DNA of 64,000 nucleotides from IMG/VR virus record IMGVR_UViG_3300032280_000594, one strand, 5' to 3'. Numbering within the stretch: the first letter of the stretch is position 1; each line of letters begins with the position of its first letter. A program made the translations under genes and the position numbers. Positions 3,244 through 62,727 of the stretch are shown here, one piece after another. A model generated the notes under the pieces. The model made no database searches. It worked only from the letters and a program-made list of their open reading frames with translations, and was not told the origin of the DNA. Origin of the DNA: a virus. Taxonomy: Duplodnaviria; Heunggongvirae; Uroviricota; Caudoviricetes.

Positions 3244-3726
3244 ATGAGATACTTAAAAACACTTGAATCATTAAAAGAAGATAAAGAAGAACTTGATCAA
3301 TTTAGAGAAACAATTAAAATGATTTTTGTTGATTTGATTGATGAAGGTTTTTCACCACAAATTCTATTACAACAAAGAGTTAAGTCACGTATAAATGATT
3401 ATACAACTGCTATGGCAAGTAGTTATAATAAATGTAATGTTGTTTATATTAGACTTGTAAGACATAAAGACCAAGATGAAGATGTAGTAGATTTCCAGAG
3501 AACAGTACAGAACAATAAATCAGAAGAGTTTAAACATAAAATAACTGATTGTTTTGAAACACTTCTAGCTTTGTTAGACAGAAGATGGAATGGTGCAAAA
3601 ATTGAAAAGATTGTTAGACAAGACGCAGTTACTGCAAATGATACTTACTTTCATGTGTTAGATGAAAGAGTATGGAGTAGAGACTTTATATCAGTGGCAA
3701 TTACAATTGTTAAAAGCGAAATATAA
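3244..3726 (+). CDS. FamA protein
   Basis: starts MRYLKTLESL; DLIDEGF core variant; TAATATG junction with upstream gene. Confidence 0.6.
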   Translation: MRYLKTLESLKEDKEELDQFRETIKMIFVDLIDEGFSPQILLQQRVKSRINDYTTAMASSYNKCNVVYIRLVRHKDQDEDVVDFQRTVQNNKSEEFKHKITDCFETLLALLDRRWNGAKIEKIVRQDAVTANDTYFHVLDERVWSRDFISVAITIVKSEI

Positions 3727-3727
3727 T

Positions 3728-4120
3728 ATGAGATACTTAAAATTATTTGAAAATAACGAAGATATAAATATTGACAAAGATTACATTGAAATGTGTTTTG
3801 TTGATTTTATTGATGAGAATAACTTTAAACTAATGTTTCATGGGCGACAAAGTAGTCTAACTTGTGAGATCACTATCGATATGTCAGATAGTTCTTTACC
3901 TTCTCCTAGTTCAATAAAGGAATTTACTAAGAGAACCGAAATGAGAAATTATCTATTTAATAGAATTGAAGAGAGTTTATCTAAAGTAAAAATTGAATAC
4001 CCTACAATAAAACATAAAGTAATGGATATGACTGGTGCTGATCAAACAGAAGTTAAAATTATACTATCAGTATCAGAATCATATATATCATATAATCCAT
4101 CAGGATGGTTTCCCATTTAA
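3728..4120 (+). CDS. FamA protein
   Basis: track ORF 3662..4120 trimmed to the internal ATG encoding MRYLKLFENN; same TATAATATGAGATAC junction as 3244. Confidence 0.55.
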   Translation: MRYLKLFENNEDINIDKDYIEMCFVDFIDENNFKLMFHGRQSSLTCEITIDMSDSSLPSPSSIKEFTKRTEMRNYLFNRIEESLSKVKIEYPTIKHKVMDMTGADQTEVKIILSVSESYISYNPSGWFPI

Positions 4121-4166
4121 TTTGTATTTTATTAAACTTTTATCTATTTTTGTATAAAATTCATAT

Positions 4167-4631
4167 ATGAGAGTAGCATTTTTCCACGGCTTAGAGTCGA
4201 AACCCCACAGTGAGAAGAACATAGAATTAGTAAAACATTTTGGTGAATCAAATGTTTATGCACCCGCTATGGACTATCGAGACTCAACTTTATTTGAGAA
4301 AGTCTTAAAAGAAATTAAAGAAAGAGATATACAATTACTTATTGGTTCTTCAATGGGTGGATATTTCGCTTATTTTTTATCCACAATGACTGGTATACCC
4401 ACTTTATTATTCAATCCAGCTATAATAGGTCGATCTTTTGATCCTTATCCTTTACAGAGATTAGGTAATCTACCAGCAAAACACACGGTTGTATTAGGTA
4501 TAAATGATGATGTAATCGATCCAATTGAATCAACTGCTTATTTCATGAATAAAGGTATAGGTGAGTTTGAGTACAATAAGGAAGATATAGGACATAGAAT
4601 TCCTATTGAAATATTTACTAAATACTTATAA
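4167..4631 (+). CDS. alpha/beta hydrolase, YqiA-like esterase
   Basis: N-terminal FFHGLESKP and nucleophile elbow GSSMGG typical of small alpha/beta-fold esterases. Confidence 0.55.
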   Translation: MRVAFFHGLESKPHSEKNIELVKHFGESNVYAPAMDYRDSTLFEKVLKEIKERDIQLLIGSSMGGYFAYFLSTMTGIPTLLFNPAIIGRSFDPYPLQRLGNLPAKHTVVLGINDDVIDPIESTAYFMNKGIGEFEYNKEDIGHRIPIEIFTKYL

Positions 4632-4683
4632 TCGTTTTTATTTCTGAAAAGTATTCCTTATCTTTGTAAAACAAATAAGAGAT

Positions 4684-5397
4684 ATGACAAAAGAGACAAA
4701 AACTGTAGCGACAACCAATTTTACAATCAATCAAAAATTTAATTTTTTAGATAGTTTAACTACAATGGTAGTTGAAAATGTCACTCCATCTATCTTGGTT
4801 TTAGGATCTGGTGGCCTAGGAAAAACTCACTCTGTTACTACAACAATACAAGACAACAACTTAGAAGAGAAAGATTATATATTCATCAAAGGTTATTCAA
4901 CCGCGAGAGGACTTTATAATACTTTATACGATAATAATGGTAAACTAATCATCTTTGACGACTGTGACTCAGTTTTAGATGATAGAGTAGCAATAAACAT
5001 CTTAAAGTCAGCACTTGACTCATACGAAACAAGAACAATCACTTGGTCTGCACGTATGAATAAAGCAGATGTTTATCCACAATCTTTTAACTTTACTGGC
5101 AGAATAATCTTTATCTCTAACAAAGATAAGGCAAAAATTGACGGAGCAATCTTATCAAGAAGTTTAACTGTTGATTTAAGTATGACACCAGACGAGAAAA
5201 TACAAAGAATGGAATACATCTTACCTAACATCTTACCTGACTACGAGTTAGAAGTAAAGAAAGATGCACTTGGTTTCTTGGCAAAGAATAAAGAAAGTGA
5301 TAACTTGAACCTTAGAACATTAATAATGATTTCTAAAATCAGACATTCTTACGAAGATAGTTGGGAAAACTTGGCAACTTATATGATTAATTCATAA
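4684..5397 (+). CDS. P-loop NTPase (AAA-like ATPase)
   Basis: Walker A VLGSGGLGKTHS and Walker B LIIFDDCD. Confidence 0.6.
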   Translation: MTKETKTVATTNFTINQKFNFLDSLTTMVVENVTPSILVLGSGGLGKTHSVTTTIQDNNLEEKDYIFIKGYSTARGLYNTLYDNNGKLIIFDDCDSVLDDRVAINILKSALDSYETRTITWSARMNKADVYPQSFNFTGRIIFISNKDKAKIDGAILSRSLTVDLSMTPDEKIQRMEYILPNILPDYELEVKKDALGFLAKNKESDNLNLRTLIMISKIRHSYEDSWENLATYMINS

Positions 5398-7735: not shown

Positions 7736-7946
7736 CATAGGATATGAAGCTACTCACAAATGTGAGACTGGACCCGTTAGAATTATCTTTGAGAAAGGTA
7801 AAGTTTATAATACCTTATCAGAGTATGATAATTGTTATCTATTCTTAATAAATCACGACATTTATATTATAAAGAAACTTTACTTTTTGACATTAGAAGA
7901 AACTTTTAAGAGAAAGAAGTTCTCATTTAATAAACAGTTTAGATAG
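7719..7946 (+). CDS. hypothetical small protein, FamB-like N-terminus (MKVICNIGYE)
   Basis: ORF track 75 aa; lacks canonical tail. Confidence 0.3.
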   Translation: MKVICNIGYEATHKCETGPVRIIFEKGKVYNTLSEYDNCYLFLINHDIYIIKKLYFLTLEETFKRKKFSFNKQFR

Positions 7947-8838
7947 ACTTTTGTCCAGATAAAAATATATCTATATAAGATACTCTACGAATTGGTTGAC
8001 TATCTAATTCCTGTTCAAAGTCATCCTTGATATAGTGAAAAGTATCTTCACCTAGAAATCTAATCTTTTCAATGTCATATTTTCTTTCTAATCTAATAAC
8101 AAAAGGAATGATTTGATCTTTAACTTCACTCCAAAAGAAATCTTCTCTTTCCTTTTTAGTCATACATATATTTATATTATGAAATGATGGGTTAGGTACT
8201 AAAGTCTTACCACCCTTACCAACCGTATTTTCTCCAAGATTTTGACCAATTCTTATTTTGAAACCTTCATCCATAAGATAAGCTAAGTTAGTCTCACAAT
8301 ACTCTTTGAGCTCATTCTTTTGATCTCTCGACCATCTATCAAAACCTTCTTCTACCTTTGAAATAGGTAATCTCATTATCTTTATACGTATTTCCTCAAA
8401 AATCTGGCTACGTGGATTATTATAAGAATTCCAATTATAATAATGAGGATCTCTTTTCTCATCTAATAAATCCTTTATTCTTGCAGCACCTTCTCTAGTG
8501 TATGACAAACTACTGCCTAAACGTTCAGTAAAAAATGTAACCACCGCAATAGTATACCTTCTATCTAACATAATCAAATAAGGTAACATATAATCTTTTA
8601 TTTGATTCCAAGTAAACTGTTCTTTATCTAAATTAGGATCACGACCAGTATAAAAAGGTGTATCACCTTTTCTAATTCTAATTACTTCATAAACATCAGA
8701 TGTAAAATCACCGGAGTTGACCTGGAATTTAAAACCATCATCCGTAAGATAAGCCAAATAATCATTAGTAAAATCCAATAACTCTTCAGTCCTATCTGGT
8801 TGTTCCCACTTCTCTTCAAATAACTTTATATACTTCAT
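7939..8838 (-). CDS. FamA protein, tandem two-domain member
   Basis: MKYIKLFEE leader; two copies of the core (NDYLAYLTDDGF...WNQIKDYMLPYL and YCETNLAYLMDEGF...WSEVKDQIIPFV). Confidence 0.65.
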   Translation of the reverse strand: MKYIKLFEEKWEQPDRTEELLDFTNDYLAYLTDDGFKFQVNSGDFTSDVYEVIRIRKGDTPFYTGRDPNLDKEQFTWNQIKDYMLPYLIMLDRRYTIAVVTFFTERLGSSLSYTREGAARIKDLLDEKRDPHYYNWNSYNNPRSQIFEEIRIKIMRLPISKVEEGFDRWSRDQKNELKEYCETNLAYLMDEGFKIRIGQNLGENTVGKGGKTLVPNPSFHNINICMTKKEREDFFWSEVKDQIIPFVIRLERKYDIEKIRFLGEDTFHYIKDDFEQELDSQPIRRVSYIDIFLSGQKSI

Positions 8839-9254
8839 TTCTTCTTATCATTTATTGTTATAGAGATTTTATCGATCATCAAATATTTCAAATCTTCTTC
8901 ATCAAATAAATCTTGTAATGAATAACAAATACCACTCATACTTTCATCATATATTACATACGGTTTATTTGACCTATTACGTGATGAATCCTCTAATTCA
9001 TAACGTCTTTCCAATAGTTGTAAAAATGGTAAAACCTTATCCTTTATTAAATCCCAAGAAACATTCTCATCATTTTCGATACTTATGTTTATACATTTAC
9101 TATATCCTTTGTGCCAAATTTTAAAATCTATTTCCCAACCTTCATCAACTAAATAAGCTAACGATTGTTCAGTAAAATCTTTTACTTCATCTAAAAGATT
9201 ATCGTAATACAATTCAACATCTTTCCAACCTTCAAATAAATTTATATATCTCAT
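8835..9254 (-). CDS. FamA protein
   Basis: MRYINLFEG; QSLAYLVDEGW; WDLIKDKVLPFL; ATGA overlaps. Confidence 0.65.
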   Translation of the reverse strand: MRYINLFEGWKDVELYYDNLLDEVKDFTEQSLAYLVDEGWEIDFKIWHKGYSKCINISIENDENVSWDLIKDKVLPFLQLLERRYELEDSSRNRSNKPYVIYDESMSGICYSLQDLFDEEDLKYLMIDKISITINDKKK

Positions 9255-9643
9255 TCTTTAACTATTATTGTTATCATAAGGATCATATTATTGGTAAGAT
9301 ACTGATCTGCTTCACCACTTAAAAGTTCTTCTATATCTTTTCTAGTATCATATTGGTATTGTCTTCCACCATTTTGATGAAATACTATTTCTAAAATTCT
9401 ATACTGTTTATTCAACATATAAATAAATGGTGAGAACTTATCCTCAATCTCTTCCCAAGTGAAATTCCATTGAGACATCCTACCCGAACGCTTAACTATT
9501 GCAATCTTTGTACAACCACCACCGTAATTATGTGAATCATATGTACTAATCTCAAACCCATCATCCATAAGATAAGCTAAGTGGTCCTCAGTAAATTCAA
9601 GTACATTGTCTTTAAATGCTTCAAATAACTTTATATATCTCAT
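9251..9643 (-). CDS. FamA protein
   Basis: MRYIKLFEAF; DHLAYLMDDGF; WEEIEDKFSPFI. Confidence 0.65.
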   Translation of the reverse strand: MRYIKLFEAFKDNVLEFTEDHLAYLMDDGFEISTYDSHNYGGGCTKIAIVKRSGRMSQWNFTWEEIEDKFSPFIYMLNKQYRILEIVFHQNGGRQYQYDTRKDIEELLSGEADQYLTNNMILMITIIVKE

Positions 9644-10104
9644 AAATAAAATAATATATTTATTTGTGTTATGTATCTCTCATATTGAAAGTTATATGGA
9701 TTCTGTAATCCTCTATTTACTATGGTAATAACAACACGATCAACACTACCCTTAGTACTACTATAATGGCTCAATAGATTAGCAGCATCACTAACCTGAC
9801 TTATAAGTTTATTCTCTTTATCAGTAAAAGGTAAATTCCTATCTCTTTCTGTCGTAATAACATGATCAAAATTCCTACCTGATATAGTTATCGTACCCTG
9901 TCTATAATTCTTTGAATGTTCATCAAATACTGCTATATATTGATCGTCTGATAATGAAGAAGTAATATCTTTCACTAACTGAATTATTGTCTTACCAGTC
10001 TCATTGTAACCTCTCAATTCAAATCCATCATCAAATAAATCAACACAACATAATTCAATGTTGTCTTGTGTTATTGATTCGTTAAATGGTTTTAGGTATT
10101 TCAT
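9640..10104 (-). CDS. FamA protein
   Basis: track ORF 9640..10170 trimmed to internal start MKYLKPFNES (ATG at 10104). Confidence 0.55.
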   Translation of the reverse strand: MKYLKPFNESITQDNIELCCVDLFDDGFELRGYNETGKTIIQLVKDITSSLSDDQYIAVFDEHSKNYRQGTITISGRNFDHVITTERDRNLPFTDKENKLISQVSDAANLLSHYSSTKGSVDRVVITIVNRGLQNPYNFQYERYITQINILFYL

Positions 10105-10120
10105 AAAACTATATATTATT

Positions 10121-10609
10121 TTAGTAAAATTGTATTTGTAATTGATAGAATTGCTCAGGAACTTCCTCATCCTTTATCACATTTCTTATATCCATATAAT
10201 AAAAATCCGATCTATAATCCTCTGGTAAATACCTATTAAACTTAATCGTTCTGTTTCTAGGATTATCATCTATATAAACATGTTTTTGTGTTTGTAAATT
10301 CTTGTTGTATGTCAAAACTGATTCTTCTACAAGTGCAGCTGGCTCAATACTATACTCTCTTATCAACATATGTAAAAATGGTATAACCTGATCCTTAATG
10401 TTATCCCACTTAATTATATCATAAGCACCATTACCTACTTTATATAAACTAAAATAATACGATGGTGATACTCTATAACCAGACATTTGCGATGTTACAT
10501 TAAACTGATAAGAATAATCATCTAAAAGATTTGCTAAGTAACCCACACAGAATTCCTCAACATCTTCTAAACCACCAAGTGCTTCATTATATTTTTTTAA
10601 GTATCTCAT
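10121..10609 (-). CDS. FamA protein
   Basis: MRYLKKYNEA; FCVGYLANLLDD; WDNIKDQVIPFL. Confidence 0.65.
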   Translation of the reverse strand: MRYLKKYNEALGGLEDVEEFCVGYLANLLDDYSYQFNVTSQMSGYRVSPSYYFSLYKVGNGAYDIIKWDNIKDQVIPFLHMLIREYSIEPAALVEESVLTYNKNLQTQKHVYIDDNPRNRTIKFNRYLPEDYRSDFYYMDIRNVIKDEEVPEQFYQLQIQFY

Positions 10610-11473
10610 CTATTCAATCAATATAATTTGTAGTCTAATCGAAATATCTCCGAAGTTATATTGCTGAACATGACCCGGCCCAACCTTAAAAGACATTATA
10701 ATCTTTGTACTAGAAAACTGATCCGATAAACTTAGTAAAAGTTTATCCGCACAATCCTGTGCCAAAGACTCAATCTGATCCAACATCTCACACTTATAAT
10801 TAGATAAAGTAACAGCCGGTTTAAACCTATCTGAATAATAAACTCTCATCGGTGCCGATTTAACACCAATTATTACACTCTTAGTAGTTAAACCCGTCAT
10901 TAATATATCTCTCCACTCTTCTTGAGTAAGCTTTCTCTCCATAGAAATTGATTGTTGTGGTTGAACACCTGAAAAACCACCACCTTTTATTATTGACTTA
11001 ACTTCAAAATCCTCATCAATCAAATAAGCTAAATAATGTTCTATATCATCTGTTTTCAATTCAACAGACTCTTTAATAGGTTTATCAAAAGTGACCCAAA
11101 CTAAAATCTCTATTAAACTTTCATTATCAAATGGTAAAGGATTACCAGATAAAATTGTTTCAATACCAAACTCAGTATCATCATTATAATCATAAATCAT
11201 TATAGACTGATCTACTATATTGTAGTCTCTATTTAACATATGTAAAAATGGAATATATGACTCTTTAACATCTAACCAAGTAAAATCAATGTCATTACTC
11301 AATTTTATCAAAAATGCATTTGGTGGCAAACCACCACCTCCTGAATGATCACTTGCTTGTGTAATATTTACCGTATAACCATCATCTAACAAATATGCTA
11401 GATAAGACTCACTAAAATCACGTAGTTGTGACTCTAAATCAACTGACTCATTAAATCTTTTTAAATATCTCAT
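10610..11473 (-). CDS. FamA protein, tandem two-domain member
   Basis: MRYLKRFNES; SESYLAYLLDDGY...WLDVKESYIPFL then a second HYLAYLIDEDF core. Confidence 0.65.
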   Translation of the reverse strand: MRYLKRFNESVDLESQLRDFSESYLAYLLDDGYTVNITQASDHSGGGGLPPNAFLIKLSNDIDFTWLDVKESYIPFLHMLNRDYNIVDQSIMIYDYNDDTEFGIETILSGNPLPFDNESLIEILVWVTFDKPIKESVELKTDDIEHYLAYLIDEDFEVKSIIKGGGFSGVQPQQSISMERKLTQEEWRDILMTGLTTKSVIIGVKSAPMRVYYSDRFKPAVTLSNYKCEMLDQIESLAQDCADKLLLSLSDQFSSTKIIMSFKVGPGHVQQYNFGDISIRLQIILIE

Positions 11474-11913
11474 TGCTTAACCGTGTTTTTTACTACAATA
11501 CCAATCTCTTTGATACCATTACCGTTAAAACCATCTCTTTTTATTTTACCACCCCAATCTTCAATCTCTGAATCTTTCACAAATAATTGATTTCCTGAAA
11601 CAAAATTGATAATAATACTAGAACTTCTCTGATCTAAGTCTTTATCATTCAAATCATATTCTCTGGATAACATCGTAACAAATGGAATATAATAATCTTT
11701 AATCTCATCCCAACGAAAAGGTTGAATACGAGGATTTAAAGTTTTTCCTAACCATATAATATATGAATCCCACTTTTCAGTATCAACAACTTCTATCTTA
11801 AAACTAGTATCATCCAATAAATAAGCCAAATAAGTCTCACAGAAATCTTTTAACTCTGCTTCATCAACCTGACTATATAAATCATTCTCAAAAATCCTTT
11901 TCAAATACCTCAT
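11470..11913 (-). CDS. FamA protein
   Basis: MRYLKRIFEN; FCETYLAYLLDD; WDEIKDYYIPFV. Confidence 0.65.
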   Translation of the reverse strand: MRYLKRIFENDLYSQVDEAELKDFCETYLAYLLDDTSFKIEVVDTEKWDSYIIWLGKTLNPRIQPFRWDEIKDYYIPFVTMLSREYDLNDKDLDQRSSSIIINFVSGNQLFVKDSEIEDWGGKIKRDGFNGNGIKEIGIVVKNTVKQ

Positions 11914-11927
11914 TATCTATATATTAT

Positions 11928-12365
11928 TTAAAAATTTCTAAACCAAGCTTTCTTGACTTCTTTATCCTCTTTTTTAACAACCCTAATAAATAAAGTAGCA
12001 ATCTCCTTATTATCCGGTAAATCATCTAACTGATTTAGTTTTAACTCTTCCTGTTTATTCCATGTTTCCCCATATAGGTTTTTACCATGATAAATAATAC
12101 CCATCGCTGGCTCTGAACCATTATCATAATACAATTCGTAATCCTTTAATAAAAAATGTAAGAAAGGTAAAATCTGATCCTTCATCTGTGACCATAAACT
12201 ATTACTCGACTCAGGAGTTCCTATCATTATTTGATGATAGTAATCTCCTTCAAACTTTGAAATCCTTACCTTAAAACCCTCATCAATCAAATAAGCTAAG
12301 TGAGTATCACAGAAATCCTGCAACTCATCCTTTAAACTCTCATTAAACCTTCTCAAATGTTTCAT
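11928..12365 (-). CDS. FamA protein
   Basis: MKHLRRFNES; FCDTHLAYLIDEGF; WSQMKDQILPFL. Confidence 0.65.
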   Translation of the reverse strand: MKHLRRFNESLKDELQDFCDTHLAYLIDEGFKVRISKFEGDYYHQIMIGTPESSNSLWSQMKDQILPFLHFLLKDYELYYDNGSEPAMGIIYHGKNLYGETWNKQEELKLNQLDDLPDNKEIATLFIRVVKKEDKEVKKAWFRNF

Positions 12366-12584
12366 ACCTCTTTCTTATTTTTAACATTAAATGAAATACG
12401 GTCATTTACTACCTCATCCCAACTACTATTGGTAACCCTGCGTAAAGATAAAATCACAGGAAAGTAATGTTTATCCTGTTGATAATCATCAATAATAACA
12501 TTCAACCCCTCATCCAAAATCTTTTATCTCTTGCTCATCTAAAACCTCTGAATTACTTTCGTTATACTTCTTTATGTATCTCAT
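12362..12584 (-). pseudogene. FamA pseudogene with two frameshifts
   Basis: frame 1 MRYIKKYNESNSEVLDEQEIKDFG-stop; frame 2 DEGLNVIIDDYQQDKHYFPVILSLRRVTNSSGMR-stop; frame 3 WDEVVNDRISFNVKNKKEV-stop ending in the ATGA of the 12365 gene; the three pieces match leader, DEGF core and W-D-KD-IPF motif. Confidence 0.5.
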
Positions 12585-12700
12585 CACTGCAATTTATTTT
12601 AAAACCCCACGTGCGTCAGCACGTTTACGACTCCGACGACCCCCAAACTCCTTGCCGTAGGCAACGGCTCCCCGAACCCCTGATTGGTCCCACCACAATC

Positions 12701-13120
12701 CTAATCCTTCTTAAAACCCTTAACCATCAACTTAACCGTAGTAACCAAAAAATCCGGCGACTCATCATTCATTATCTGATCCACAGTAAATAACTTCTTT
12801 GAAGCATCCCACTGCTCTGTACTATAAAAATAAACCAATTGAGCCAACTCAAACCTCCTCGACAAAACACGAACCAACGGAATAAACCTATCCATCACCA
12901 AAGAATAATCATATAAATTATTTACCATAGAACCATCAGTGAAAGATAACCTTATATCAAACTCACCACCCCAAGCCGGTCTTACCTCATAAGTAAACCC
13001 ATCATCCTCCAATGGTGCCAAAAATGGCTCACAAATATCATCCAACTGATCCTGTAAATCATCACCTTTTAACCTAACATAGAAATCAGACTCCATAAAA
13101 CTTTTTAAATACCTCATCAT
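12701..13120 (-). CDS. FamA protein inside the compositionally atypical island
   Basis: MMRYLKSFMES; ICEPFLAPLEDDGF; GC-richer codons (R,P,A,G,V rich) than other members. Confidence 0.6.
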   Translation of the reverse strand: MMRYLKSFMESDFYVRLKGDDLQDQLDDICEPFLAPLEDDGFTYEVRPAWGGEFDIRLSFTDGSMVNNLYDYSLVMDRFIPLVRVLSRRFELAQLVYFYSTEQWDASKKLFTVDQIMNDESPDFLVTTVKLMVKGFKKD

Positions 13121-13144
13121 ATACTTATATATAAAATCACCACA

Positions 13145-16648: not shown

Positions 16649-17374
16649 ATGACAAAATTTAAACACATAAAATTATTTGAATCGTTTGTGAACGAGGAAT
16701 TAAACCAAGGTACTAAACTTTCTCAGGCGTTAATTCTACATATGATGAAACAACCATCAGAAAAAGGACCTGAGATGGATAGTTGGGAAAAAGATAAAAA
16801 GGTTTATGAAAAAGCTCTAAAAGATTATCTTAAACAATATGATGTTGATGTGAAATTCATTTACGCTTACGGATCTGAATTAACAAAACATTTGTCTCTT
16901 TCTTTAAATTTACCGGAATCATTCATGTCTGGTGTAAAAAGATTTTTTGGTTTTGGAAAATCTAAAGTCTCTCTGAACTATAGGGTGGAAAATCTAACTG
17001 ATTTAAAAGACAATGATTATAGAACGGAAAATTTGAAAGAGGAAGTTTCAGTATCAATTGGATTGGATAGAACAAATACACCTTCAACTCGCTTCAAATC
17101 TAATGAACCTGGTAATTTTGATAAAGAAATTGATATAAGTGGTGTTGATCCTAATAAAGAAGGAAAAGAATATATTGATTTAGATAAAGAAGATGCACAG
17201 ATGATGTGTAAACTATTACAAGATATTAATCCTTACACTAAATTCAAGACTCCAGAGATTTTGGTTGATGCTTTAAATGAGTACTTAGAGGGAGATTTTA
17301 AATTAGATGTGAAGAGATCTCAAACAGAACCTGGTTACAAATTCGTAGTTCTAAATAGAATCATACTAAAATAA
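16649..17374 (+). CDS. hypothetical protein with FamA-like leader (MTKFKHIKLFESF) on an unrelated body
   Basis: ORF track 241 aa; no LAYL-DEGF core. Confidence 0.55.
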   Translation: MTKFKHIKLFESFVNEELNQGTKLSQALILHMMKQPSEKGPEMDSWEKDKKVYEKALKDYLKQYDVDVKFIYAYGSELTKHLSLSLNLPESFMSGVKRFFGFGKSKVSLNYRVENLTDLKDNDYRTENLKEEVSVSIGLDRTNTPSTRFKSNEPGNFDKEIDISGVDPNKEGKEYIDLDKEDAQMMCKLLQDINPYTKFKTPEILVDALNEYLEGDFKLDVKRSQTEPGYKFVVLNRIILK

Positions 17375-17546: not shown

Positions 17547-17625
17547 ATGGCAAAGGTGGTTAGAAAAGTTACTCCGAGAGTTTTCTGTGAGGATGGTTCT
17601 TCTTTACTTAAAACTACTTTAAGAA
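17547..17625 (+). repeat. about 75-bp duplicated element, copy 1 (encodes MAKVVRKVTPRVFCEDGSSLLKT...)
   Basis: near-identical to 18752..18830 (3-4 mismatches); opens a 39-codon ORF 17547..17666 that overlaps the convergent gene 17614..17823. Confidence 0.4.
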
Positions 17626-17823
17626 GTATGGTGCTAAAACTAGTTCCATTGCATTATGTATATTAGATTCTAGTAGTTTAGCTTCTTCTTCTGTTAAATC
17701 TAACTCCATAGGTAATTCAACCTCAACTGATACTTTATCATCACTTATCTCAATATTATAGTTTGCCTCAGGTGTCTGACACTCTGTTTTAACTGCTTCG
17801 TTGAACTTTCTTATATGTCTCAT
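17614..17823 (-). CDS. small acidic protein with FamA-like leader (MRHIRKFNEA)
   Basis: ORF track 69 aa. Confidence 0.5.
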   Translation of the reverse strand: MRHIRKFNEAVKTECQTPEANYNIEISDDKVSVEVELPMELDLTEEEAKLLESNIHNAMELVLAPYFLK

Positions 17824-23136: not shown

Positions 23137-23137
23137 A

Positions 23138-44996: not shown

Positions 44997-45400
44997 AACA
45001 TTTAAGAAAGTTCAATGAGAGACTTGAACACAGTGACATAAAAGATTTCTGTGAGATCAATCTAGCTTATTTGTTAGATGAGGGTGTTGATGTTCAAGTT
45101 AGTTATTATGATAGTTCCGAAGATGAGGTGGTTATTGATTTTCATGAGAAGATTTTTTGGAATGAGTGTAAGGATCATATTATTCCATTTTTAAGTAGAG
45201 TGGGTAATAAGTATGAGTTAGGTGAGTTTGGTATTATTAAAAATAATTTTATGTTTGCAGTTAAAGGAACACACGGTATTCGAGTAGATGTTAATATAAG
45301 TTATGATAATATAGATGATGTCGAACAAAGACTTTCTAAACACTGGGAAGGTAATTTGATTATGGATAGAATAATCTTTTATGTTAAAAATGAAAAATAG
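44993..45400 (+). CDS. FamA protein
   Basis: MKHLRKFNER; FCEINLAYLLDEGV; WNECKDHIIPFL. Confidence 0.65.
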   Translation: MKHLRKFNERLEHSDIKDFCEINLAYLLDEGVDVQVSYYDSSEDEVVIDFHEKIFWNECKDHIIPFLSRVGNKYELGEFGIIKNNFMFAVKGTHGIRVDVNISYDNIDDVEQRLSKHWEGNLIMDRIIFYVKNEK

Positions 45401-45401
45401 T

Positions 45402-45947
45402 ATGAAATATTTAGTACGAAGTACTCTTTACCGAGGTAAAGTAAGAAGATTTAACGAAAGTTTAGATGAAAATGAGTTACTTGATTTCTGTGAGGCAAAT
45501 CTAGCTTATCTATTAGATGAAGGATTTGATATAATGATTAGTGGTAATAATTTCAGTGGAGATTCTTTTAAAAGTATAAAAATAACTAATCCAAGATCTT
45601 TAGATGATCGTCAGGATGGTACGGTAAATTATTTTAAATGGAATGACATTAAAGATCATTTTATACCATTTTTGACACGTTTATTAAATGAGTATTCAAT
45701 TTATGGTAACTTTGTTATAACTGATGGTATATTGTTTCACTATGTGGCACCTATGTATGCTCATGATAGAAGTACTAATTGGTATAAATTCTCTGGGTTA
45801 AGGACTACAAAGTTGTATAGACCATCGGTAAGTCAGGTATTAAATGATGAGATATATAATGAGATAAGTACTATACATAATGATAAACATTGTATGGATT
45901 ACTTATTTAGTATTGAATTATTAGTAACAGAAAAGCAAAAATCTTAA
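45402..45947 (+). CDS. FamA protein with a 10-aa insertion inside the leader (MKYL-VRSTLYRGKV-RRFNES)
   Basis: track ORF 45381..45947 trimmed to ATG 45402 (TAGTATG junction); FCEANLAYLLDEGF; WNDIKDHFIPFL. Confidence 0.6.
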   Translation: MKYLVRSTLYRGKVRRFNESLDENELLDFCEANLAYLLDEGFDIMISGNNFSGDSFKSIKITNPRSLDDRQDGTVNYFKWNDIKDHFIPFLTRLLNEYSIYGNFVITDGILFHYVAPMYAHDRSTNWYKFSGLRTTKLYRPSVSQVLNDEIYNEISTIHNDKHCMDYLFSIELLVTEKQKS

Positions 45948-45965: not shown

Positions 45966-46259
45966 TTATTTTGAATAGTTAGGTTTTCTACCTTCGCCTT
46001 GTTGGCCTTTTTTCTCTACTTTTCTTTTTCTAGCAACAGAAGCTTTCTTTTCTTTTTTAGACATTCTTGCAGCAACTCTTACTTTTCTACACTTTGGATA
46101 ACCACCTTTATCAGCATCATCACGACCACAAGGTGGATGTGATCCATCAGCATTGGTCTTGGATATGTCTACCCATTTTTCTTTAAACCACTTGTCAAGA
46201 CCACCCTTGGTTTTCTTTTCTTCTAAAATAAATTGTTCAAATAGTAGTATATGTTCCAT
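45966..46259 (-). CDS. small basic protein with FamA-like leader (MEHILLFEQF)
   Basis: Lys/Arg-rich C-terminal half; conserved Cys pair PPCGRD...YPKCRK. Confidence 0.5.
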   Translation of the reverse strand: MEHILLFEQFILEEKKTKGGLDKWFKEKWVDISKTNADGSHPPCGRDDADKGGYPKCRKVRVAARMSKKEKKASVARKRKVEKKGQQGEGRKPNYSK

Positions 46260-46468
46260 TATTTCTTTTTCTTTTTAGCTTTTTCCCATTTGCCACCTTT
46301 AGATTTATATCTTTTCGCAGCAGCTCCACATGCGTAAGCAGATGGCCATACATCGTATTTCGATTTGGCCCAAGCTTTACAACTATTCCATAGTTCGGAA
46401 TTTGTTGGTACATTCTTCTCTAAGATAAGAACTTCTTTAAAGTCTTCAAAAATTAATAAGTTTTTCAT
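46259..46468 (-). CDS. small basic protein with FamA-like leader (MKNLLIFEDF)
   Basis: ATGA overlap with previous gene; poly-Lys C-terminus; likely paralog of 45966..46259. Confidence 0.5.
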   Translation of the reverse strand: MKNLLIFEDFKEVLILEKNVPTNSELWNSCKAWAKSKYDVWPSAYACGAAAKRYKSKGGKWEKAKKKKK

Positions 46469-47397: not shown

Positions 47398-48012
47398 ATG
47401 AGATATTTAAGGTCATTCAATGAAAGTTCTACTACGACTGATGTAGATTATTATAAATCTGCAATACATTACTTCAATAACAATTTGAATAATGATAGAG
47501 CTTTAGAGTATATTAATAAAGCGATTGAGTTATCGGATAGAAAAAGTAATCCTTATTACTTAGCACTAAAGAAGATGATTGAAGAAAAAGGACCTGAACC
47601 AAAGTTCGATAGTAATGAAGAACAGATAGAAGCTTTAAAAGATTTATGTGATATTAACTTAGCTTACTTAAAAGATGAGAATTTTATTGTAAGGGTTGTT
47701 CAATCAAGACCCGATTCATTTTACATTTATATTGGATTAGAAGGATTTAATGAAAGAGGTATGAGAGATTATTTTAGTTGGGCTAGTGTAAAAGATCATT
47801 TAATACCATTTTTTCATTACTTAGTAAAAGATTTTAAAATACAAGATACTGCAAAGGGTCATAACCCAAGAGGCATCTCGTTTGTTTCTTATGATAGTAC
47901 TGGTACTGTAAATGAACATATTGATGTTGATGAAATCTTAAATGATGAAATTGCTAACGATACACAAATTGCTGGTTTATCTATTTATGTTAAGTCAGAA
48001 TACTTTATTTAG
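47398..48012 (+). CDS. FamA protein with an 80-90 aa helical insertion between leader and core
   Basis: track ORF 47341..48012 trimmed to MRYLRSFNES; LCDINLAYLKDENF; WASVKDHLIPFF. Confidence 0.6.
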   Translation: MRYLRSFNESSTTTDVDYYKSAIHYFNNNLNNDRALEYINKAIELSDRKSNPYYLALKKMIEEKGPEPKFDSNEEQIEALKDLCDINLAYLKDENFIVRVVQSRPDSFYIYIGLEGFNERGMRDYFSWASVKDHLIPFFHYLVKDFKIQDTAKGHNPRGISFVSYDSTGTVNEHIDVDEILNDEIANDTQIAGLSIYVKSEYFI

Positions 48013-56657: not shown

Positions 56658-56727
56658 ATTTATACTTAGAACTACAAAGATAACAATAAAAATTGTAATT
56701 CCAAAATTAAGTTTTTATATATATGAT

Positions 56728-57216
56728 ATGAGATACCTAAAGAGTTTTAATGAAGGCACATCCTTTCTACCAGAAGATCTAAATGAACTACAATCTTTTT
56801 GTGAGACTTATTTAGCTTATTTACTGGATGAAGGATTTGGCATACGTGTTAGACATGGTTCTCGTAAAGACAGAGCCCGTATAGAATTTTATAAAGATGA
56901 ACATTGGCATCCAGCTCCTTTTAATTGGAATGATGTTAAAGATCATTACATTCCGTTTTATCAAATGTTATCTAAAGAATATGAAATTAGTAAAATGACG
57001 GATAGAACCTTAGTAGATTGTCAAATAAAATATGGTGCACCAGATTATAAATATGAGGTTAGAGATTGTTCTGTTAAGTTTGAATATAGAAAACCTGCTA
57101 AACAATTATGGGAGACTGAGGCAAAGTGGTTTACAGAAGAGGAGATAATAAATGATAAGGTAGGGGATTTAGGTAGATATGTCGGTGTCATTTCAATTTT
57201 CCTAGATAACAATTAA
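56728..57216 (+). CDS. FamA protein
   Basis: track ORF 56605..57216 trimmed to MRYLKSFNEG; FCETYLAYLLDEGF; WNDVKDHYIPFY. Confidence 0.6.
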   Translation: MRYLKSFNEGTSFLPEDLNELQSFCETYLAYLLDEGFGIRVRHGSRKDRARIEFYKDEHWHPAPFNWNDVKDHYIPFYQMLSKEYEISKMTDRTLVDCQIKYGAPDYKYEVRDCSVKFEYRKPAKQLWETEAKWFTEEEIINDKVGDLGRYVGVISIFLDNN

Positions 57217-60797: not shown

Positions 60798-60839
60798 ATA
60801 GTAAATTGATTATCAAAATATAATTTTAATATATACTTA

Positions 60840-61415
60840 ATGAAGTATTTGAAAACGTTTAATGAATCATTAGATAGAAATGAACTAAGAGAATTTTGTG
60901 AGATGTATTTGGCTTATCTACTGGATCAGTCAGATTTTAATTTAGAGATTTTTTCTTCTACAAAAGACATTTCAATTATTGAGTTAAGAGATAATCCAGA
61001 AGGTACTACGTTTAGTGGTGATAAGATTTTTACTTGGTTAGATGTTAAAGATCACATAATTCCATTTTTAAAAATGTTAGATAAAAGTTATGACATTGAA
61101 ACTATTCGCATCTTTCAATATGGGAAAGATCGTGAAAGTACTGGTTTGGCATCACATTCAATAAGAAGTATGGAAAGATTATCTGATGATACAAAGATGA
61201 AATGGGTAACAATTTCAGTTTCTAATAAGAAATCTTTTATACAAAAAGTAAAGTCATTCTTTGTTAGTGAAGCTTATAATAAACCAAGAGCTGGTGGTAA
61301 GAAACGTTGGTCTGTTAAATATAAAAAGACAATAAATTGTTCTAATCCAAAAGGATTTTCACAAAAGCAGTATTGCAAAAGAAAAAGAAAAGGTGGTACT
61401 TATAAAAAAGATTAA
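60840..61415 (+). CDS. FamA protein with extra basic C-terminal extension
   Basis: MKYLKTFNES; FCEMYLAYLLDQ; WLDVKDHIIPFL; C-terminus KRWSVKYKKT...KRKRKGGTYKKD. Confidence 0.6.
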   Translation: MKYLKTFNESLDRNELREFCEMYLAYLLDQSDFNLEIFSSTKDISIIELRDNPEGTTFSGDKIFTWLDVKDHIIPFLKMLDKSYDIETIRIFQYGKDRESTGLASHSIRSMERLSDDTKMKWVTISVSNKKSFIQKVKSFFVSEAYNKPRAGGKKRWSVKYKKTINCSNPKGFSQKQYCKRKRKGGTYKKD

Positions 61416-61418
61416 TAT

Positions 61419-61868
61419 ATGAGATACTTAAAAAATTTTGAAAGTAAATGGTGGGAAAAGGTTGTTGATAAAGATGAATTAAAATCTTCAGCAGAATCTT
61501 ATTTGGCTTATTTAATGGATGAAGGTTTCCAGGTTGGAATAAATTTAGATCGTCATGAAGATGATCGTGGTGGTATTGATTTACATCTATTTAAAGAAGC
61601 TAGTTCATTTAGTGAGGTTGATACTTATGATGATGAACCGGTGTATGATTATTTTGAATGGAGTGATGTTAAAGAACATTTTATTCCATTTATTAAAATG
61701 TTTATGAGAGAATATACTTTTTCTACTTTAAAGTTGTATGCTTTTTATGGTAATAATGTAAGATTCCTTAGACTAAATACTGGAACATTTGAGGATTTAA
61801 TCGAAGGAAAATTTGAAGTTCCAGAAGAGTTAAGAGAAATAGTAATAAATGGTATAAGAAAAATATAA
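61419..61868 (+). CDS. FamA protein
   Basis: MRYLKNFESK; SAESYLAYLMDEGF; WSDVKEHFIPFI. Confidence 0.65.
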   Translation: MRYLKNFESKWWEKVVDKDELKSSAESYLAYLMDEGFQVGINLDRHEDDRGGIDLHLFKEASSFSEVDTYDDEPVYDYFEWSDVKEHFIPFIKMFMREYTFSTLKLYAFYGNNVRFLRLNTGTFEDLIEGKFEVPEELREIVINGIRKI

Positions 61869-62314
61869 TGAAATACTTAAAAAGAATTTTTGAAGAAGTA
61901 AATCGTAATGAGTATGTAGAGTTACAGGATTTCTGTGAAATGTATTTAGCATACTTATTGGATGATAGTGATTGGCAAATAGACATATCGATGATTACTC
62001 AGGTTTATCCACATACTGGTCATTATGATGTTTTGATTTGGAGAAAATATGTGATAAATCCAGATGGTTCACACACTTATCCTAATGTTGTTTGGGATGA
62101 TATATCGGATCATTTTATACCATTCTTTAAAGTTCTAACGAATAATTACGAATTAGTACCTAGTGTTGCTCGTAGTATGAAAGATGGAAGTCTTGTTGAT
62201 AATCTGGTAGAATTTTCTGGTGCAAATGTCACAAAGGAAAAGATACTTGGAGATTTGATACCGGGTAATCAACCAGTTAGAAAAATAAAGTTTAAAGTAA
62301 AACGTAAGATATGA
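61868..62314 (+). CDS. FamA protein
   Basis: MKYLKRIFEE; FCEMYLAYLLDD; WDDISDHFIPFF. Confidence 0.65.
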   Translation: MKYLKRIFEEVNRNEYVELQDFCEMYLAYLLDDSDWQIDISMITQVYPHTGHYDVLIWRKYVINPDGSHTYPNVVWDDISDHFIPFFKVLTNNYELVPSVARSMKDGSLVDNLVEFSGANVTKEKILGDLIPGNQPVRKIKFKVKRKI

Positions 62315-62727
62315 AATACTTAAAAGGAATTTTTGAAGCAGCAGGAGAAAAAGTAGAGTTACAAGATTTCTGTGAAATGTATTTAGCGTATCTTATTGAT
62401 GATGGATTTGAAGTTGAAGTTGAAAGAACTTTTGGATTTAAAGACACGTTGACAATTGTTATAAAACCAGAGAAAGGTACTACTACAAGTTGGAATGATA
62501 TAAAAGATAAACTGATTCCATTCTTTTCTATGTTAGTAAAGAATTATAACATTGGTGCAGATCGCGGAACAAACTGTCATCCAAGTTGGTTAGAAAGGAA
62601 GGTTTCATTTTATTCTACAGGTCTAAACTCAAGAACTTCTATAGATATAGATAAATTGATTGAGGATCAACCAGGACATCCAATAACAGGTATTAATTTA
62701 GTACAACTAAACGTACATAAAAAGTAA
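62311..62727 (+). CDS. FamA protein
   Basis: MKYLKGIFEA; FCEMYLAYLIDDGF; WNDIKDKLIPFF. Confidence 0.65.
   Translation: MKYLKGIFEAAGEKVELQDFCEMYLAYLIDDGFEVEVERTFGFKDTLTIVIKPEKGTTTSWNDIKDKLIPFFSMLVKNYNIGADRGTNCHPSWLERKVSFYSTGLNSRTSIDIDKLIEDQPGHPITGINLVQLNVHKK

What the first reader, a model, noticed from the sequence alone, without database searches (positions are those of the whole stretch)
3244..62727. About 35 genes share a near-invariant 9-10 aa N-terminal leader; it looks like a portable sorting tag, possibly a capsid-targeting signal on an injected-protein arsenal
The leader is M-[RK]-[YH]-[LI]-K-[RKP]-F-N-E-[SA] (MRYLKRFNES, MKHLKPFNEA, MKYLKTFNES ...). It heads about 27 intact genes of the LAYL-DEGF / W-DIKD-IPF family, starting at 3244, 3728, 7939-13120 (12 in a row), 21987-26353, 36816, 44499-45947, 47398, 56728 and 60840-62727. 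It also heads proteins with unrelated bodies: an alpha/beta hydrolase (24514..25746, MKHLKLYKQF), two Lys-rich basic proteins (45966..46259 MEHILLFEQF; 46259..46468 MKNLLIFEDF), 16649..17374 (HIKLFESF), 17614..17823 (MRHIRKFNEA) and 26530..26724 (MEHLMKFNERN). Codons vary synonymously (atgagatatttaaaaagattcaatgaa / atgaaacatttaagaaagttcaatgag / atgaagtatttgaaaacgtttaatgaa / atgagatacctaaagagttttaatgaa), so selection acts on the peptide rather than on a DNA site. One member tolerates a 10-aa insertion inside the tag (45402) and another an 85-aa insertion right after it (47398), as expected for a modular tag. The closest precedent is the T4 capsid-targeting sequence MKTYQEFIAE shared by internal proteins IPI-III/Alt and by hypervariable internal-protein loci; the prohead protease cuts it after a hydrophobic-x-Glu. 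Here F-N-E followed by S/A gives the same context. If that holds, this window encodes dozens of virion-packaged, co-injected effectors, a strong candidate anti-defence arsenal. Alternative: the leader is simply the first secondary-structure element of a common fold.
Basis: partly seen in the sequence, partly recalled or inferred. Interest (0 to 1): 0.85.

Follow-up and report, generated by a model that had tools for sequence, protein, structure and literature searches.

The report
Portable N-terminal tag in huge phages
About 30 genes in this stretch of a ~635-kb phage genome begin with the same 9-residue peptide (MKYLKRFNE), and related giant phages put that peptide on more than 100 unrelated proteins, so it is most likely an address label that loads proteins into the phage head, although this has not been shown.

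Summary
The window is syntenic with a 635,274-bp metagenomic phage contig of the Mahaphage group. It holds a 24-member acidic paralog family with no known domain or fold relative, 2-3 remote members and 2 pseudogenes. Nearly all start M-[KR]-[YH]-[LI]-K-x-F-N-E.

The same leader, or a second variant (M..Φ.[LI][FY]E.F), also heads non-family proteins: an α/β-hydrolase, two DUF5872-like proteins and two small ORFs.

With LR745206, 159 leader ORFs fall into 110 body clusters, including SET, GNAT, ART-PolyVal, NFACT-R, M15 peptidase and LRR proteins. In LR745206, 70 of 931 ORFs carry it.

AlphaFold leaves residues 1-8 disordered in the family model, and Pfam domains start after the leader. It is therefore a portable tag, not a fold element.

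The capsid-targeting reading is plausible but circumstantial (~0.5):
- Relatives have a T4-type portal, gp21-like protease-scaffold fusion and gp23 capsid module.
- Their capsid and scaffold proteins carry Φ-x-E motifs.
- Both leader variants end in Φ-x-E.
- The leader shares the M-K-x-Φ-[KQ]-x-F skeleton of the T4 signal.
- A structural-gene-type promoter box precedes the leader arrays.

No virion data exist.

The parts
7939..8838 (-). Family member with two domains. Leader MKYIKLFEE. The internal second domain has only a decayed leader (MRLPISKVEE).
8835..9254 (-). Family member, leader MRYINLFEG
9251..9643 (-). Family member, leader MRYIKLFEA
9640..10104 (-). Family member, leader MKYLKPFNES. 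The true start is at 10104, inside the longer ORF that runs to 10170.
10121..10609 (-). Family member, leader MRYLKKYNEA
10610..11473 (-). Family member, leader MRYLKRFNES, plus a partial second domain without the leader
11470..11913 (-). Family member, leader MRYLKRIFEN
11928..12365 (-). Family member, leader MKHLRRFNES
12362..12700 (-). Pseudogenised member. The leader MRYIKKYNES is intact and is followed by a stop or frameshift.
12701..13117 (-). Family member at the head of the array, leader MRYLKSFMES. A promoter-like box lies at 13126-13136.
22422..22694 (-). Truncated member that has lost its N-terminus and leader
22699..24511 (-). Four family members in a row: 22699-23136, 23138-23596, 23583-24002 and 24002-24511. 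Leaders are MKHLKPFNED, MKHIKPFNEA, MRYIKRFNED and MKHLKPFNEA.
24514..25740 (-). α/β-hydrolase/thioesterase-fold protein with the variant leader MKHLKLYKQF. It sits inside the family array.
25808..26353 (-). Family member at the head of the array, leader MKHLKSFNED. A promoter-like box lies at 26356-26368.
36816..37304 (+). Family member, leader MRHLKRFNEG. Box at 36801-36811.
44499..45947 (+). Three family members: 44499-44996, 44993-45400 and 45402-45947. The last has a 10-aa insertion that splits MKYL from RRFNES. Box at 44484-44494.
47398..48012 (+). Family member with an insertion of about 65-75 aa between the leader (MRYLRSFNES) and the domain. Box at 47383-47395.
56728..57216 (+). Family member, leader MRYLKSFNEG. 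Box at 56713-56723.
60840..62727 (+). Four family members: 60840-61415 (with a basic DUF5872-like C-terminal tail), 61419-61868, 61868-62314 and 62311-62727. Box at 60827-60837.
3244..4120 (+). Two remote members, 3244-3726 and 3728-4120, with leaders MRYLKTLES and MRYLKLFEN. Body HMM E~1e-3.
21987..22367 (+). Leader MRYIKLFKES on a body with no detectable homology to the family. Box at 21972-21984.
17614..17823 (-). 69-aa ORF with a canonical leader (MRHIRKFNEA, 23 bits) on an unrelated body. Box at 17827-17837.
26530..26724 (-). 64-aa ORF with leader MEHLMKFNER (10 bits) on an unrelated body
45966..46468 (-). Two Lys-rich DUF5872-like / PHROG 23735- and 27331-like proteins, 45966-46259 and 46259-46468. 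They carry the variant leaders MEHILLFEQF and MKNLLIFEDF. The library profiles start after the leader. Box at 46472-46482.
16649..17374 (+). 241-aa ORF with a weak, offset variant (MTKF-KHIKLFESF). Membership is doubtful.

Best explanation
The 9-residue leader M-[KR]-[YH]-[LI]-K-x-F-N-E, and its variant M-x-x-Φ-x-[LI]-[FY]-E, is a portable N-terminal address peptide. It is specific to one clade of huge, probably Bacteroidota-infecting, T4-related phages (Mahaphage group).

Proposed mechanism, inferred by analogy with the T4 capsid-targeting sequence:
1. Leader genes are transcribed from the promoter type used for structural genes.
2. The short amphipathic, basic leader binds the scaffold core of the assembling prohead, so the attached protein is enclosed.
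3. The gp21-family prohead protease cuts after the Glu of the terminal Φ-x-E, that is after E9, before S/G/N/E/D.
4. The mature proteins stay in the head and enter the host with the DNA.

On this view the window holds about 30 cargo genes. Most belong to one fast-evolving acidic family of about 140 aa whose biochemical function is unknown. Host-directed or anti-defence roles are a guess.

Shown: the peptide is real, under peptide-level selection, N-terminal only, portable across unrelated folds, outside the folded domains and clade-specific.
Inferred: head targeting, cleavage and injection.
For: **Portability**
- 131 of 141 matches have no upstream in-frame ATG, so they are ORF starts.
- 138 of 141 bodies do not match the window family HMM.
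- 159 leader ORFs fall into 110 clusters. Pfam finds SET, GNAT, ART-PolyVal, NFACT-R, Peptidase_M15_4, HNH, LRR, methyltransferase and cytidylyltransferase among them.

**Outside the fold**
- AF2 of 44499-44996 gives pLDDT <50 for residues 1-8 and coil up to residue 12.
- In the hydrolase the core starts at residue 45.
- Domains start at residue 24 (NFACT-R), 37 (SET) and 24 (ART). DUF5872 and PHROG profiles start at residues 13-29.

**Peptide-level selection**.

**Clade-specific and co-varying**
- 70 of 931 ORFs in LR745206 start this way, against 5 of 3,412 internal Met.
- 11 of 75 ORFs do so in a 50-kb sample of LR756502.
- LR756500 has a different variant, MKYIKEY.[DE]F[ILV]NE[SA].
- None were found in the samples of LR756501, Lak-A1 and PTm1.

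**T4-type head module in relatives**
- Portal_T4 E 2.7e-57; Gp23 E 1.8e-26; a protease-scaffold fusion between them with a weak Peptidase_S77 match. PTm1 is annotated the same way.
- A family member lies 5.6 kb from such a capsid gene on IMG/VR contig L220.
- Eight contigs carry both leader genes and this capsid gene.

**Φ-x-E sites**
- About 14 scaffold repeats of SEYIAEN.
- The capsid propeptide has a conserved HSINE|NAY in 80 loci, LTINE|NM in PTm1 and HELYE|NAY in LR756500. T4 gp23 has FLTE|AE at the matching place.
- Orthologous NFACT-R proteins next to the capsid gene have variable N-termini that end Φ-x-E-[SG] in every listed ortholog.

**Skeleton shared with the T4 signal**: IPII/III MKTYQEFIAE, IPI MKTFKEF.

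**Promoter**: a TATATATA box lies upstream of six structural genes in LR745206 and directly before 9 of about 11 leader transcription units in the window.

**Cargo type**: an ART, as in T4 Alt.
Against: - There is no proteomic, N-terminal sequencing or expression evidence of any kind.
- The head module was seen in relatives, not in the window's own genome. LR745206 shares only 13 ORFs with the window.
- The Peptidase_S77 match is below Pfam's cut-off (E 0.005).
- P3 is Phe in the main variant, not the Leu/Ile of T4 sites.
- The number of candidate cargoes is several times more than any characterised phage head: about 70 per genome in LR745206 and about 30 in this 64-kb window.
- The family is acidic (median pI 5.1), unlike the DNA-associated T4 internal proteins.
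- Promoter enrichment among leader genes in LR745206 is modest (odds ratio ~2, p~0.02), and leader genes are not enriched near head genes (57 of 1,759 ORFs in head loci).
- Some fused two-domain proteins (P0009-P0019) keep an intact internal leader. That fits internal initiation or a recent fusion, but it would also fit a structural role.
- Bacterial PpsA begins MKYIKFFNE. If that stretch is part of the PpsA fold, as I recall from the enzyme's structure (not tested here), the sequence itself is not diagnostic.
Confidence: 0.5

Rival explanations
1. The leader is a genuine portable recognition peptide, but for some other machinery. Candidates are a degradation tag for ClpXP- or Lon-type proteases that limits the lifetime of a gene class, a chaperone or hub-binding motif, or an import signal for a phage-built intracellular compartment.
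For: All the portability, disorder and clade-specificity evidence applies equally. The start Met-basic-hydrophobic-hydrophobic resembles published N-terminal ClpX recognition motifs (my own knowledge, not tested here). The large number of bearers, 5-8% of ORFs, is easier to accept for a cytoplasmic signal than for head cargo.
Against: It does not explain the sharply conserved C-terminal end of the tag (N-E followed by a small or polar residue), which matches the Φ-x-E motifs of the capsid and scaffold proteins. It also does not explain the skeleton shared with the T4 signal or the structural-gene-type promoter in front of the arrays. No compartment genes were sought or found.
Confidence: 0.25
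2. The conserved start reflects a requirement of translation initiation or transcription for near-leaderless, Shine-Dalgarno-free late mRNAs. On this view the peptide is a by-product of a favoured A/U-rich 5' coding sequence or acts as a nascent-chain element.
For: The promoter box sits only 3-4 nt from the ATG of array-head genes, so these mRNAs would be almost leaderless. SD-like sequences precede only 8 of 149 ORFs. The leader uses almost only A/U-rich codons.
Against: A control with the same codons in a different order gave 4 loci against at least 120, so order matters, not composition. 44% of same-residue codon pairs differ. Internal genes of arrays that overlap the upstream stop codon also carry the leader. 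About 80% of window genes lack it, including the other paralog families and, in LR745206, the structural genes driven by the same promoter box.
Confidence: 0.12
3. The leader is simply the conserved first structural element of one very divergent superfamily, and most 'unrelated' bodies are undetected homologues.
For: Some leader proteins outside the family share a loose helix + D-[DE]-G-F + strand pattern, for example 3244, 3728 and LR745206 37041. Some fusions keep an internal leader. PpsA begins with the same sequence, and in PpsA that stretch is, as I recall, part of the fold.
Against: The leader sits on proteins with clearly different known folds: α/β-hydrolase, SET, GNAT, ART, NFACT-R, LRR and M15. 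AF2 leaves it disordered. Iterative HMM search from the family does not recruit other bodies. Only 9 of 108 cluster representatives show the loose pattern.
Confidence: 0.05
4. The shared 5' end is a DNA-level handle for recombination that shuffles gene cassettes behind a common promoter.
For: The arrays are hypervariable, contain pseudogenes and fusions, and start with promoter plus leader. T4 internal-protein loci are thought to exchange in this way (my own knowledge).
Against: The conserved stretch is only 27 nt with frequent synonymous differences, which is too short and too variable for homologous recombination. Conservation follows the amino-acid sequence.
Confidence: 0.03

Closest known systems
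T4 capsid-targeting sequence (CTS) of internal proteins IPI/IPII/IPIII and Alt, removed by the gp21 prohead protease (Mullaney & Black 1996; reviewed in PMC3012670 and PMC5694885)
   Same: It is a short N-terminal peptide (about 10-20 aa in T4) shared by otherwise unrelated, fast-evolving proteins. The skeleton M-K-x-Φ-[KQ]-x-F matches T4 IPII/III MKTYQEFIAE and IPI MKTFKEF (read here). It ends in hydrophobic-x-Glu. The phage group has homologous portal, gp21-like protease-scaffold and gp23 genes. One cargo is an ADP-ribosyltransferase, like Alt.
   Different: The sequence is different, with Phe or Tyr where T4 has Leu/Ile at P3 in the main variant. There are two or more variants per genome. 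T4 has four such proteins (IPI, IPII, IPIII and Alt), whereas here there are about 70 bearers per genome and more than 100 body families. The dominant cargo family is acidic. The protease is fused to a repeat scaffold. No experimental evidence of targeting or cleavage exists.
Propeptides of ejection and inner-body proteins of phiKZ-like giant phages (phiKZ, 201phi2-1, SPN3US), cleaved at S/A/G-x-E (PMC5694885, PMC7411985, PMC10052503)
   Same: These are giant phages with paralogous families of head-internal proteins. They have N-terminal propeptides ending in x-E that are removed by a gp21-family protease. The N-termini of paralogs are more conserved than the bodies (SPN3US gp53/gp54).
   Different: Those propeptides are mostly 20 to more than 100 residues, have a small residue at P3, and are not one short peptide shared by dozens of unrelated proteins. 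The phage lineage is also different.
Other cargo-loading peptides: phage P1 Dar packaging signals (PMC9024508, PMC12810830) and encapsulin cargo-loading peptides (my own knowledge)
   Same: A short terminal peptide or region is sufficient to load diverse cargo into a protein shell.
   Different: The position (C-terminal in encapsulins), the sequence and the shell type differ, and there is no evidence of protease removal.
N-terminal ClpX recognition motifs (Flynn et al. 2003; my own knowledge)
   Same: Met-basic-hydrophobic-hydrophobic at the extreme N-terminus, portable.
   Different: Those motifs have no conserved F-N-E-S end and do not mark a phage-specific gene class.

Membership tests
T4-type capsid-targeting sequence | A short N-terminal peptide shared by proteins with unrelated bodies | tested here: met
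   110 body clusters and at least 10 known folds carry it. In the window it sits on the family, the hydrolase, DUF5872-like proteins and small ORFs.
T4-type capsid-targeting sequence | The phage assembles heads on a T4-type core: gp20 portal, gp21 protease, scaffold and gp23 capsid protein | tested here: inconclusive
   Met in relatives. LR745206 has Portal_T4 at 2.7e-57, Gp23 at 1.8e-26 and a protease-scaffold fusion with only a sub-threshold S77 match. LR756500 has the same gene order. IMG/VR contig L220 holds both this capsid gene and a family member. The window's own 635-kb genome could not be read outside ±10 kb.
T4-type capsid-targeting sequence | The peptide ends at a prohead-protease site (hydrophobic-x-Glu) | tested here: met
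   At sequence level only. The variants end F-N-E, [LI]-[FY]-E and [ILV]-N-E. The same motif type is conserved in the capsid propeptide and scaffold repeats.
T4-type capsid-targeting sequence | Sequence similarity to the T4 signal itself | tested here: inconclusive
   The skeleton M-K-x-Φ-[KQ]-x-F is shared with IPI, IPII and IPIII. T4 Alt (MELITELFDE) does not fit it. The peptide is too short for statistics.
T4-type capsid-targeting sequence | Bearers are present in virions with the peptide removed, and the peptide is sufficient to package a reporter | not testable with these tools
   There is no cultured member. The cultured relative PTm1 shows no leader in a 50-kb sample.
phiKZ-type ejection-protein propeptides | Long propeptide (mostly 20 to more than 100 aa) ending in S/A/G-x-E | tested here: not met
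   The leader is 8-13 aa and has F, Y, L or I at P3.
Sec/Tat/lipoprotein signal peptides | A hydrophobic core of about 10 or more residues after a basic N-region | tested here: not met
   The leader is 9 aa with three charged residues and is followed by acidic or polar linkers.
   AF2 gives residues 1-8 pLDDT <50 and coil. The hydrolase core starts at residue 45. Domains start after the leader. The bodies are not unified by iterative HMM search.
Any curated protein family for the 24-member paralog family | A significant match to Pfam, PHROGs, PDB or BFVD | tested here: not met

The most novel reading that the evidence does not exclude
The largest known phages mark 5-8% of their proteome with one short N-terminal peptide: about 70 proteins per genome and more than 100 unrelated families across the clade. 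This peptide loads the proteins into the giant capsid and is clipped off by the prohead protease. These phages would then deliver by far the largest and most diverse arsenal of pre-made proteins known for any virus of bacteria. The tag would give a sequence-only way to list that arsenal in uncultured phages.
Probability: 0.4. Interest if true: 0.9.

Novelty: new variant of a known kind. Interest (0 to 1): 0.8.

Why it matters
Huge phages of 0.5-0.7 Mb are known only from metagenomes, and most of their genes have no assigned function. A portable, clade-specific N-terminal tag sorts several percent of these 'dark' genes into one functional class from sequence alone.

If the tag is a head-loading signal, three things follow:
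- It identifies the proteins that enter the host before any phage gene is expressed. These are the prime candidates for anti-defence and host-takeover functions.
- It explains why such genes sit in hypervariable tandem arrays.
- It offers a 9-residue handle for packaging foreign proteins.

If the tag has another role, such as turnover or localisation, it would be a new kind of viral sorting signal. Either way the hypothesis can be tested directly with one cultured member, or with metaproteomics of the source samples.

Tried and rejected
- **Close relatives.** Megablast of window 1-25000 against GenBank phages found nothing. tblastn of a family member found nothing.
- **One superfamily?** An iterative HMM search meant to merge all leader-bearing bodies did not grow beyond the family. 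A loose helix-DEGF motif is not significantly enriched.
- **Literature.** A search for the peptide as text was spoiled by 'stiffness' matching 'fnes'. No paper found mentions the motif.
- **Promoter link.** It is strong in the window but only odds ratio ~2 in LR745206, so it carries limited weight.
- **The window's own capsid gene.** An attempt to find it through the protein database failed: the 635,274-bp contig is not among the 120 hits listed out of 2,115.
- **Cultured relative.** PTm1 lacks the leader in the 50 kb sampled, so no published virion proteome can be used.
- **tRNA array.** I considered a tRNA array for the low-coding stretch at 14-16.6 kb, but ARAGORN finds none.
- **Giant eukaryotic virus.** I considered this origin because of the DUF5872 hit. 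It is rejected by the T4-type structural genes of relatives and the phage-like gene density.

Full report
**What the window is.** The 64-kb window has 29% G+C and is densely coding, with 149 non-overlapping ORFs covering 89%. No GenBank phage is close at the DNA level. A family protein that is 96% identical to 44499-44996 lies on a 635,274-bp JGI contig with the same gene order. The FolD gene (40688-41575) is 72% identical to that of LR745206.1, a 634,780-bp uncultured phage. Al-Shayeb et al. 2020 (PMC7162821) place the genomes of 634 kb and above in the 'Mahaphage' clade and predict Bacteroidetes hosts. That agrees with the near absence of Shine-Dalgarno sequences here, which precede 8 of 149 ORFs.

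**Checking the observation.** All-vs-all BLASTP links 24 ORFs into one family.
- An HMM built from the bodies alone, without the leader, recovers the same 24 proteins as 26 domains. It finds 3244-3726 and 3728-4120 only at E~1e-3 and does not find 21987-22367.
- Two degraded copies exist: 12362-12700 and 22422-22694.
- A strict codon pattern for the leader matches 15 times, against none in 100 shuffles.
- Leader residues 1-9 are 60% identical between paralogs, against 26% for the bodies. Of codon pairs encoding the same leader residue, 44% differ. Selection is therefore on the peptide.
- With a leader PSSM, 17614-17823 (23 bits) and 26530-26724 (10 bits) are clear non-family bearers. The hydrolase is marginal. 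45966, 46259 and 16649 are at background.
- Those weaker cases fit a second variant, M..Φ.[LI][FY]E.F. Of the 37 database homologues of the hydrolase, which go down to 37% identity (one outlier at 26%), the full-length ones start M[KR]Y[LI]K[LI][YF]E.F while the next 30 residues vary. One full-length homologue is divergent (MLSFKEFTS).
- The realistic count is about 30-33 genes, and 'near-invariant' is an overstatement.

**Tag or fold element?** Five lines of evidence say tag.
1. In the AF2 model residues 1-8 have pLDDT below 50 and are coil up to residue 12, although they are the best-conserved part of the alignment. In the hydrolase model (pLDDT 85) the first 20 residues form a low-confidence helix and the α/β core starts at residue 45. 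The fold is confirmed as α/β-hydrolase/thioesterase by Foldseek (E 1e-7).
The same codons in a different order gave 4 loci. Of 141 matches, 131 have no upstream in-frame ATG, 122 of 125 complete ORFs have at least 60 aa, and 138 bodies do not match the family HMM.
3. Together with LR745206, 159 leader ORFs fall into 110 clusters. Pfam recognises NFACT-R, Peptidase_M15_4, SET, ART-PolyVal, GNAT, HNH, LRR, methyltransferase and cytidylyltransferase among them. Domains start at residues 24, 37 and 24 for NFACT-R, SET and ART. The DUF5872 and PHROG profiles for 45966 and 46259 also start after the leader.
4. An iterative HMM search does not merge the bodies into one superfamily.
5. In fused multi-domain members the internal copy of the leader has decayed in several lineages (P0001-7, 7939-8838, 10610-11473). 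It is retained in one lineage, P0009-19.

In 596 Gbp of bacterial and archaeal genomes the pattern is rare (114 matches). About half lie on low-GC contigs of one MAG that look like a mis-binned huge phage. About 17 are the N-terminus of PEP synthase, a chance look-alike.

**How widespread within a genome and across the clade.** I assembled all of LR745206 (931 ORFs).
- 70 ORFs start M[RK][YHF][LIVM][KR], against 5 of 3,412 internal Met. 24 have the strict FNE form.
- FNE and FES are each about 10-fold enriched at residues 4-14.
- In 50-kb samples, LR756502 (capsid protein 76% identical) has 11 of 75 ORFs, including eight different bodies in a row.
- LR756504 has the variant MKYLK.YKLFE. LR756500 has MKYIKEY.[DE]F[ILV]NE[SA].
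- LR756501, Lak-A1 and the cultured Tenacibaculum phage PTm1 have none in the sample.

The tag is thus lineage-specific and drifts with the lineage, as expected if its receptor is phage-encoded.

**Evidence bearing on the capsid-targeting idea.**
- LR745206 has a T4-type head module. The portal matches Portal_T4 at E 2.7e-57. A 707-aa protein follows whose N-terminus weakly matches the gp21 protease family (Peptidase_S77, E 0.005, below cut-off; phmmer against T4 gp21 E 0.08). The rest of that protein is about 14 tandem repeats of NIAYSEYIAENLDK. Then comes a Gp23-family capsid protein (E 1.8e-26).
- PTm1 is annotated with the same 'prohead core scaffolding protein and protease' between portal and capsid genes. 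LR756500 has the same order.
- 223 IMG/VR loci encode this capsid protein. Eight contigs carry both it and leader genes. One of them (L220) has a member of the window's family 5.6 kb from the capsid gene.
- The capsid propeptide is conserved as ...EYAEFHSINE|NAYVNASN in 80 loci, LTINE|NM in PTm1 and HELYE|NAY in LR756500. This aligns with the T4 gp23 site FLTE|AEIGG.
- The scaffold repeats carry [IL]-A-E. The clade's protease therefore probably keeps the hydrophobic-x-Glu specificity known for T4 gp21 (PMC5694885).
- Every leader variant ends in such a motif: F-N-E, [LI]-[FY]-E or [ILV]-N-E, followed mostly by S, E, N, G or D.
- Orthologues of an NFACT-R protein that sits just after the capsid gene have N-termini of different length and sequence. 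Every listed ortholog ends Φ-x-E-[SG]-KK[DE]KFP.
- The T4 signals, read from the T4 record, are MKTYQEFIAE (IPII, IPIII) and MKTFKEF... (IPI). They share the skeleton M-K-x-Φ-[KQ]-x-F with the leader.
- A TATATATA box lies 25-40 nt upstream of the capsid, protease, portal, terminase, sheath and tube genes of LR745206. It resembles the T4 late promoter TATAAATA (my own knowledge). It also lies 3-4 nt before the ATG of 9 of about 11 leader transcription units in the window.

**Why confidence stays near 0.5.**
- Nothing shows that any bearer is in a virion or is cleaved.
- The window's own head genes were not seen, and LR745206 shares only 13 ORFs with the window.
- The protease match is weak.
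- P3 is Phe in the main variant.
- Promoter enrichment in LR745206 is modest (odds ratio ~2, p~0.02).
- Leader genes are not concentrated near head genes.
- Seventy cargo species per genome would exceed the ~50 head proteins of SPN3US (PMC7411985).

The main rival is a different recognition function for the same portable peptide, such as turnover, a binding hub or a compartment. A translation-initiation explanation is weakened by the permuted-codon control, by synonymous variation and by the leader's absence from most genes. The 'first element of a common fold' alternative is essentially excluded.

**Verdict.** This is a clade-wide, portable N-terminal tag in the largest known phages, apparently undescribed. 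The capsid-targeting interpretation is the best available mechanism. It makes sharp, testable predictions but remains inferred. I rate it a new variant of a known kind (a T4-type capsid-targeting signal) at unprecedented scale, with interest 0.8.

Noticed in passing
window 13126-13136(-), 17827-17837(-), 21972-21984(+), 26356-26368(-), 36801-36811(+), 44484-44494(+), 46472-46482(-), 47383-47395(+), 56713-56723(+), 60827-60837(+): A promoter-like box, TTTTTATATATAC, lies only 3-4 nt before the ATG, so these mRNAs would be nearly leaderless. The same box lies 25-40 nt upstream of six structural genes in LR745206 and occurs upstream of 14% of its genes, against 1.3% of random 60-nt windows.
   Followed up: partly
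window, whole: Shine-Dalgarno-like sequences precede only 8 of 149 ORFs. This is consistent with a Bacteroidota host, as predicted for Mahaphages in PMC7162821.
   Followed up: partly
window 6545-6700, 21086-21943, 34531-38925, 43178-43444, 46818-47296, 50571-51786: A second paralog family of about 20 small proteins (50-120 aa, mostly ~75) with the motif C[IV].N...LT.GK.Y. None has the leader.
   Followed up: no
window 5402-5647, 35514-35750, 38922-39158, 39466-39961, 54126-54344, 55466-55774: A third paralog family of 7 members (~78 aa) starting MKWVKCIY...GKIYEV.
   Followed up: no
window 12362-12700(-) and 22422-22694(-): Pseudogenised family members. The first keeps an intact leader (MRYIKKYNES) followed by a stop or frameshift. 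The second has lost its N-terminus.
   Followed up: partly
window 60840-61415(+), residues ~140-191: This family member carries a Lys-rich C-terminal tail (KRWSVKYKKTINCSNPKGFSQKQYC...). It resembles the DUF5872-like proteins at 45966-46468 by eye, so it looks like a domain fusion.
   Followed up: no
window 39967-41575(-), 13429-14067(+), 31578-32408(-), 54737-55402(-): Auxiliary genes: FolD (THF dehydrogenase/cyclohydrolase), a SAM methyltransferase, a uracil-DNA glycosylase-family protein, an SPFH/Band-7 protein and a GIY-YIG/NUMOD homing endonuclease.
   Followed up: partly
window 1869-3242(+): A 457-aa protein with a DUF6576 match (E 2e-7). DUF6576 was also hit by one leader-bearing protein in the IMG/VR + LR745206 representative set.
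   Followed up: no
window 14000-16600: A stretch with only short ORFs on both strands and raised G+C nearby (0.36 at 12-14 kb). ARAGORN finds no tRNA or tmRNA anywhere in the window.
   Followed up: partly
LR745206.1 198546-200669 (L133:2546-4669): A prohead protease-scaffold fusion whose scaffold part is about 14 tandem 14-residue repeats, NIAYSEYIAENLDK. Each repeat holds an [IL]-A-E motif like T4 gp21 cleavage sites and echoes the T4 signal ...EFIAE.
   Followed up: partly
L230, L239, L248, L258, L272, L294 and others (GenBank JALOAD01, 'Ca. Muiribacterium halophilum' MAG): About 50 tandem paralogs of a leader + LRR-type protein (MKYLKxFNENINxSEIEAICxKYNI...) lie on contigs of 21-28% G+C. 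This looks like a huge phage mis-binned into a bacterial MAG.
   Followed up: partly
L231, L237, L238, L247, L262, L266 and others: Bacterial PEP synthase (PpsA) begins MKYIKFFNE... This is a chance look-alike of the leader in an orthologous bacterial enzyme.
   Followed up: partly
head loci L143-L222, ORF just downstream of the capsid gene: A ~129-aa NFACT-R-domain protein follows the capsid gene in about half of 78 loci. Elsewhere homing-endonuclease-like genes appear to be inserted at that spot.
   Followed up: partly
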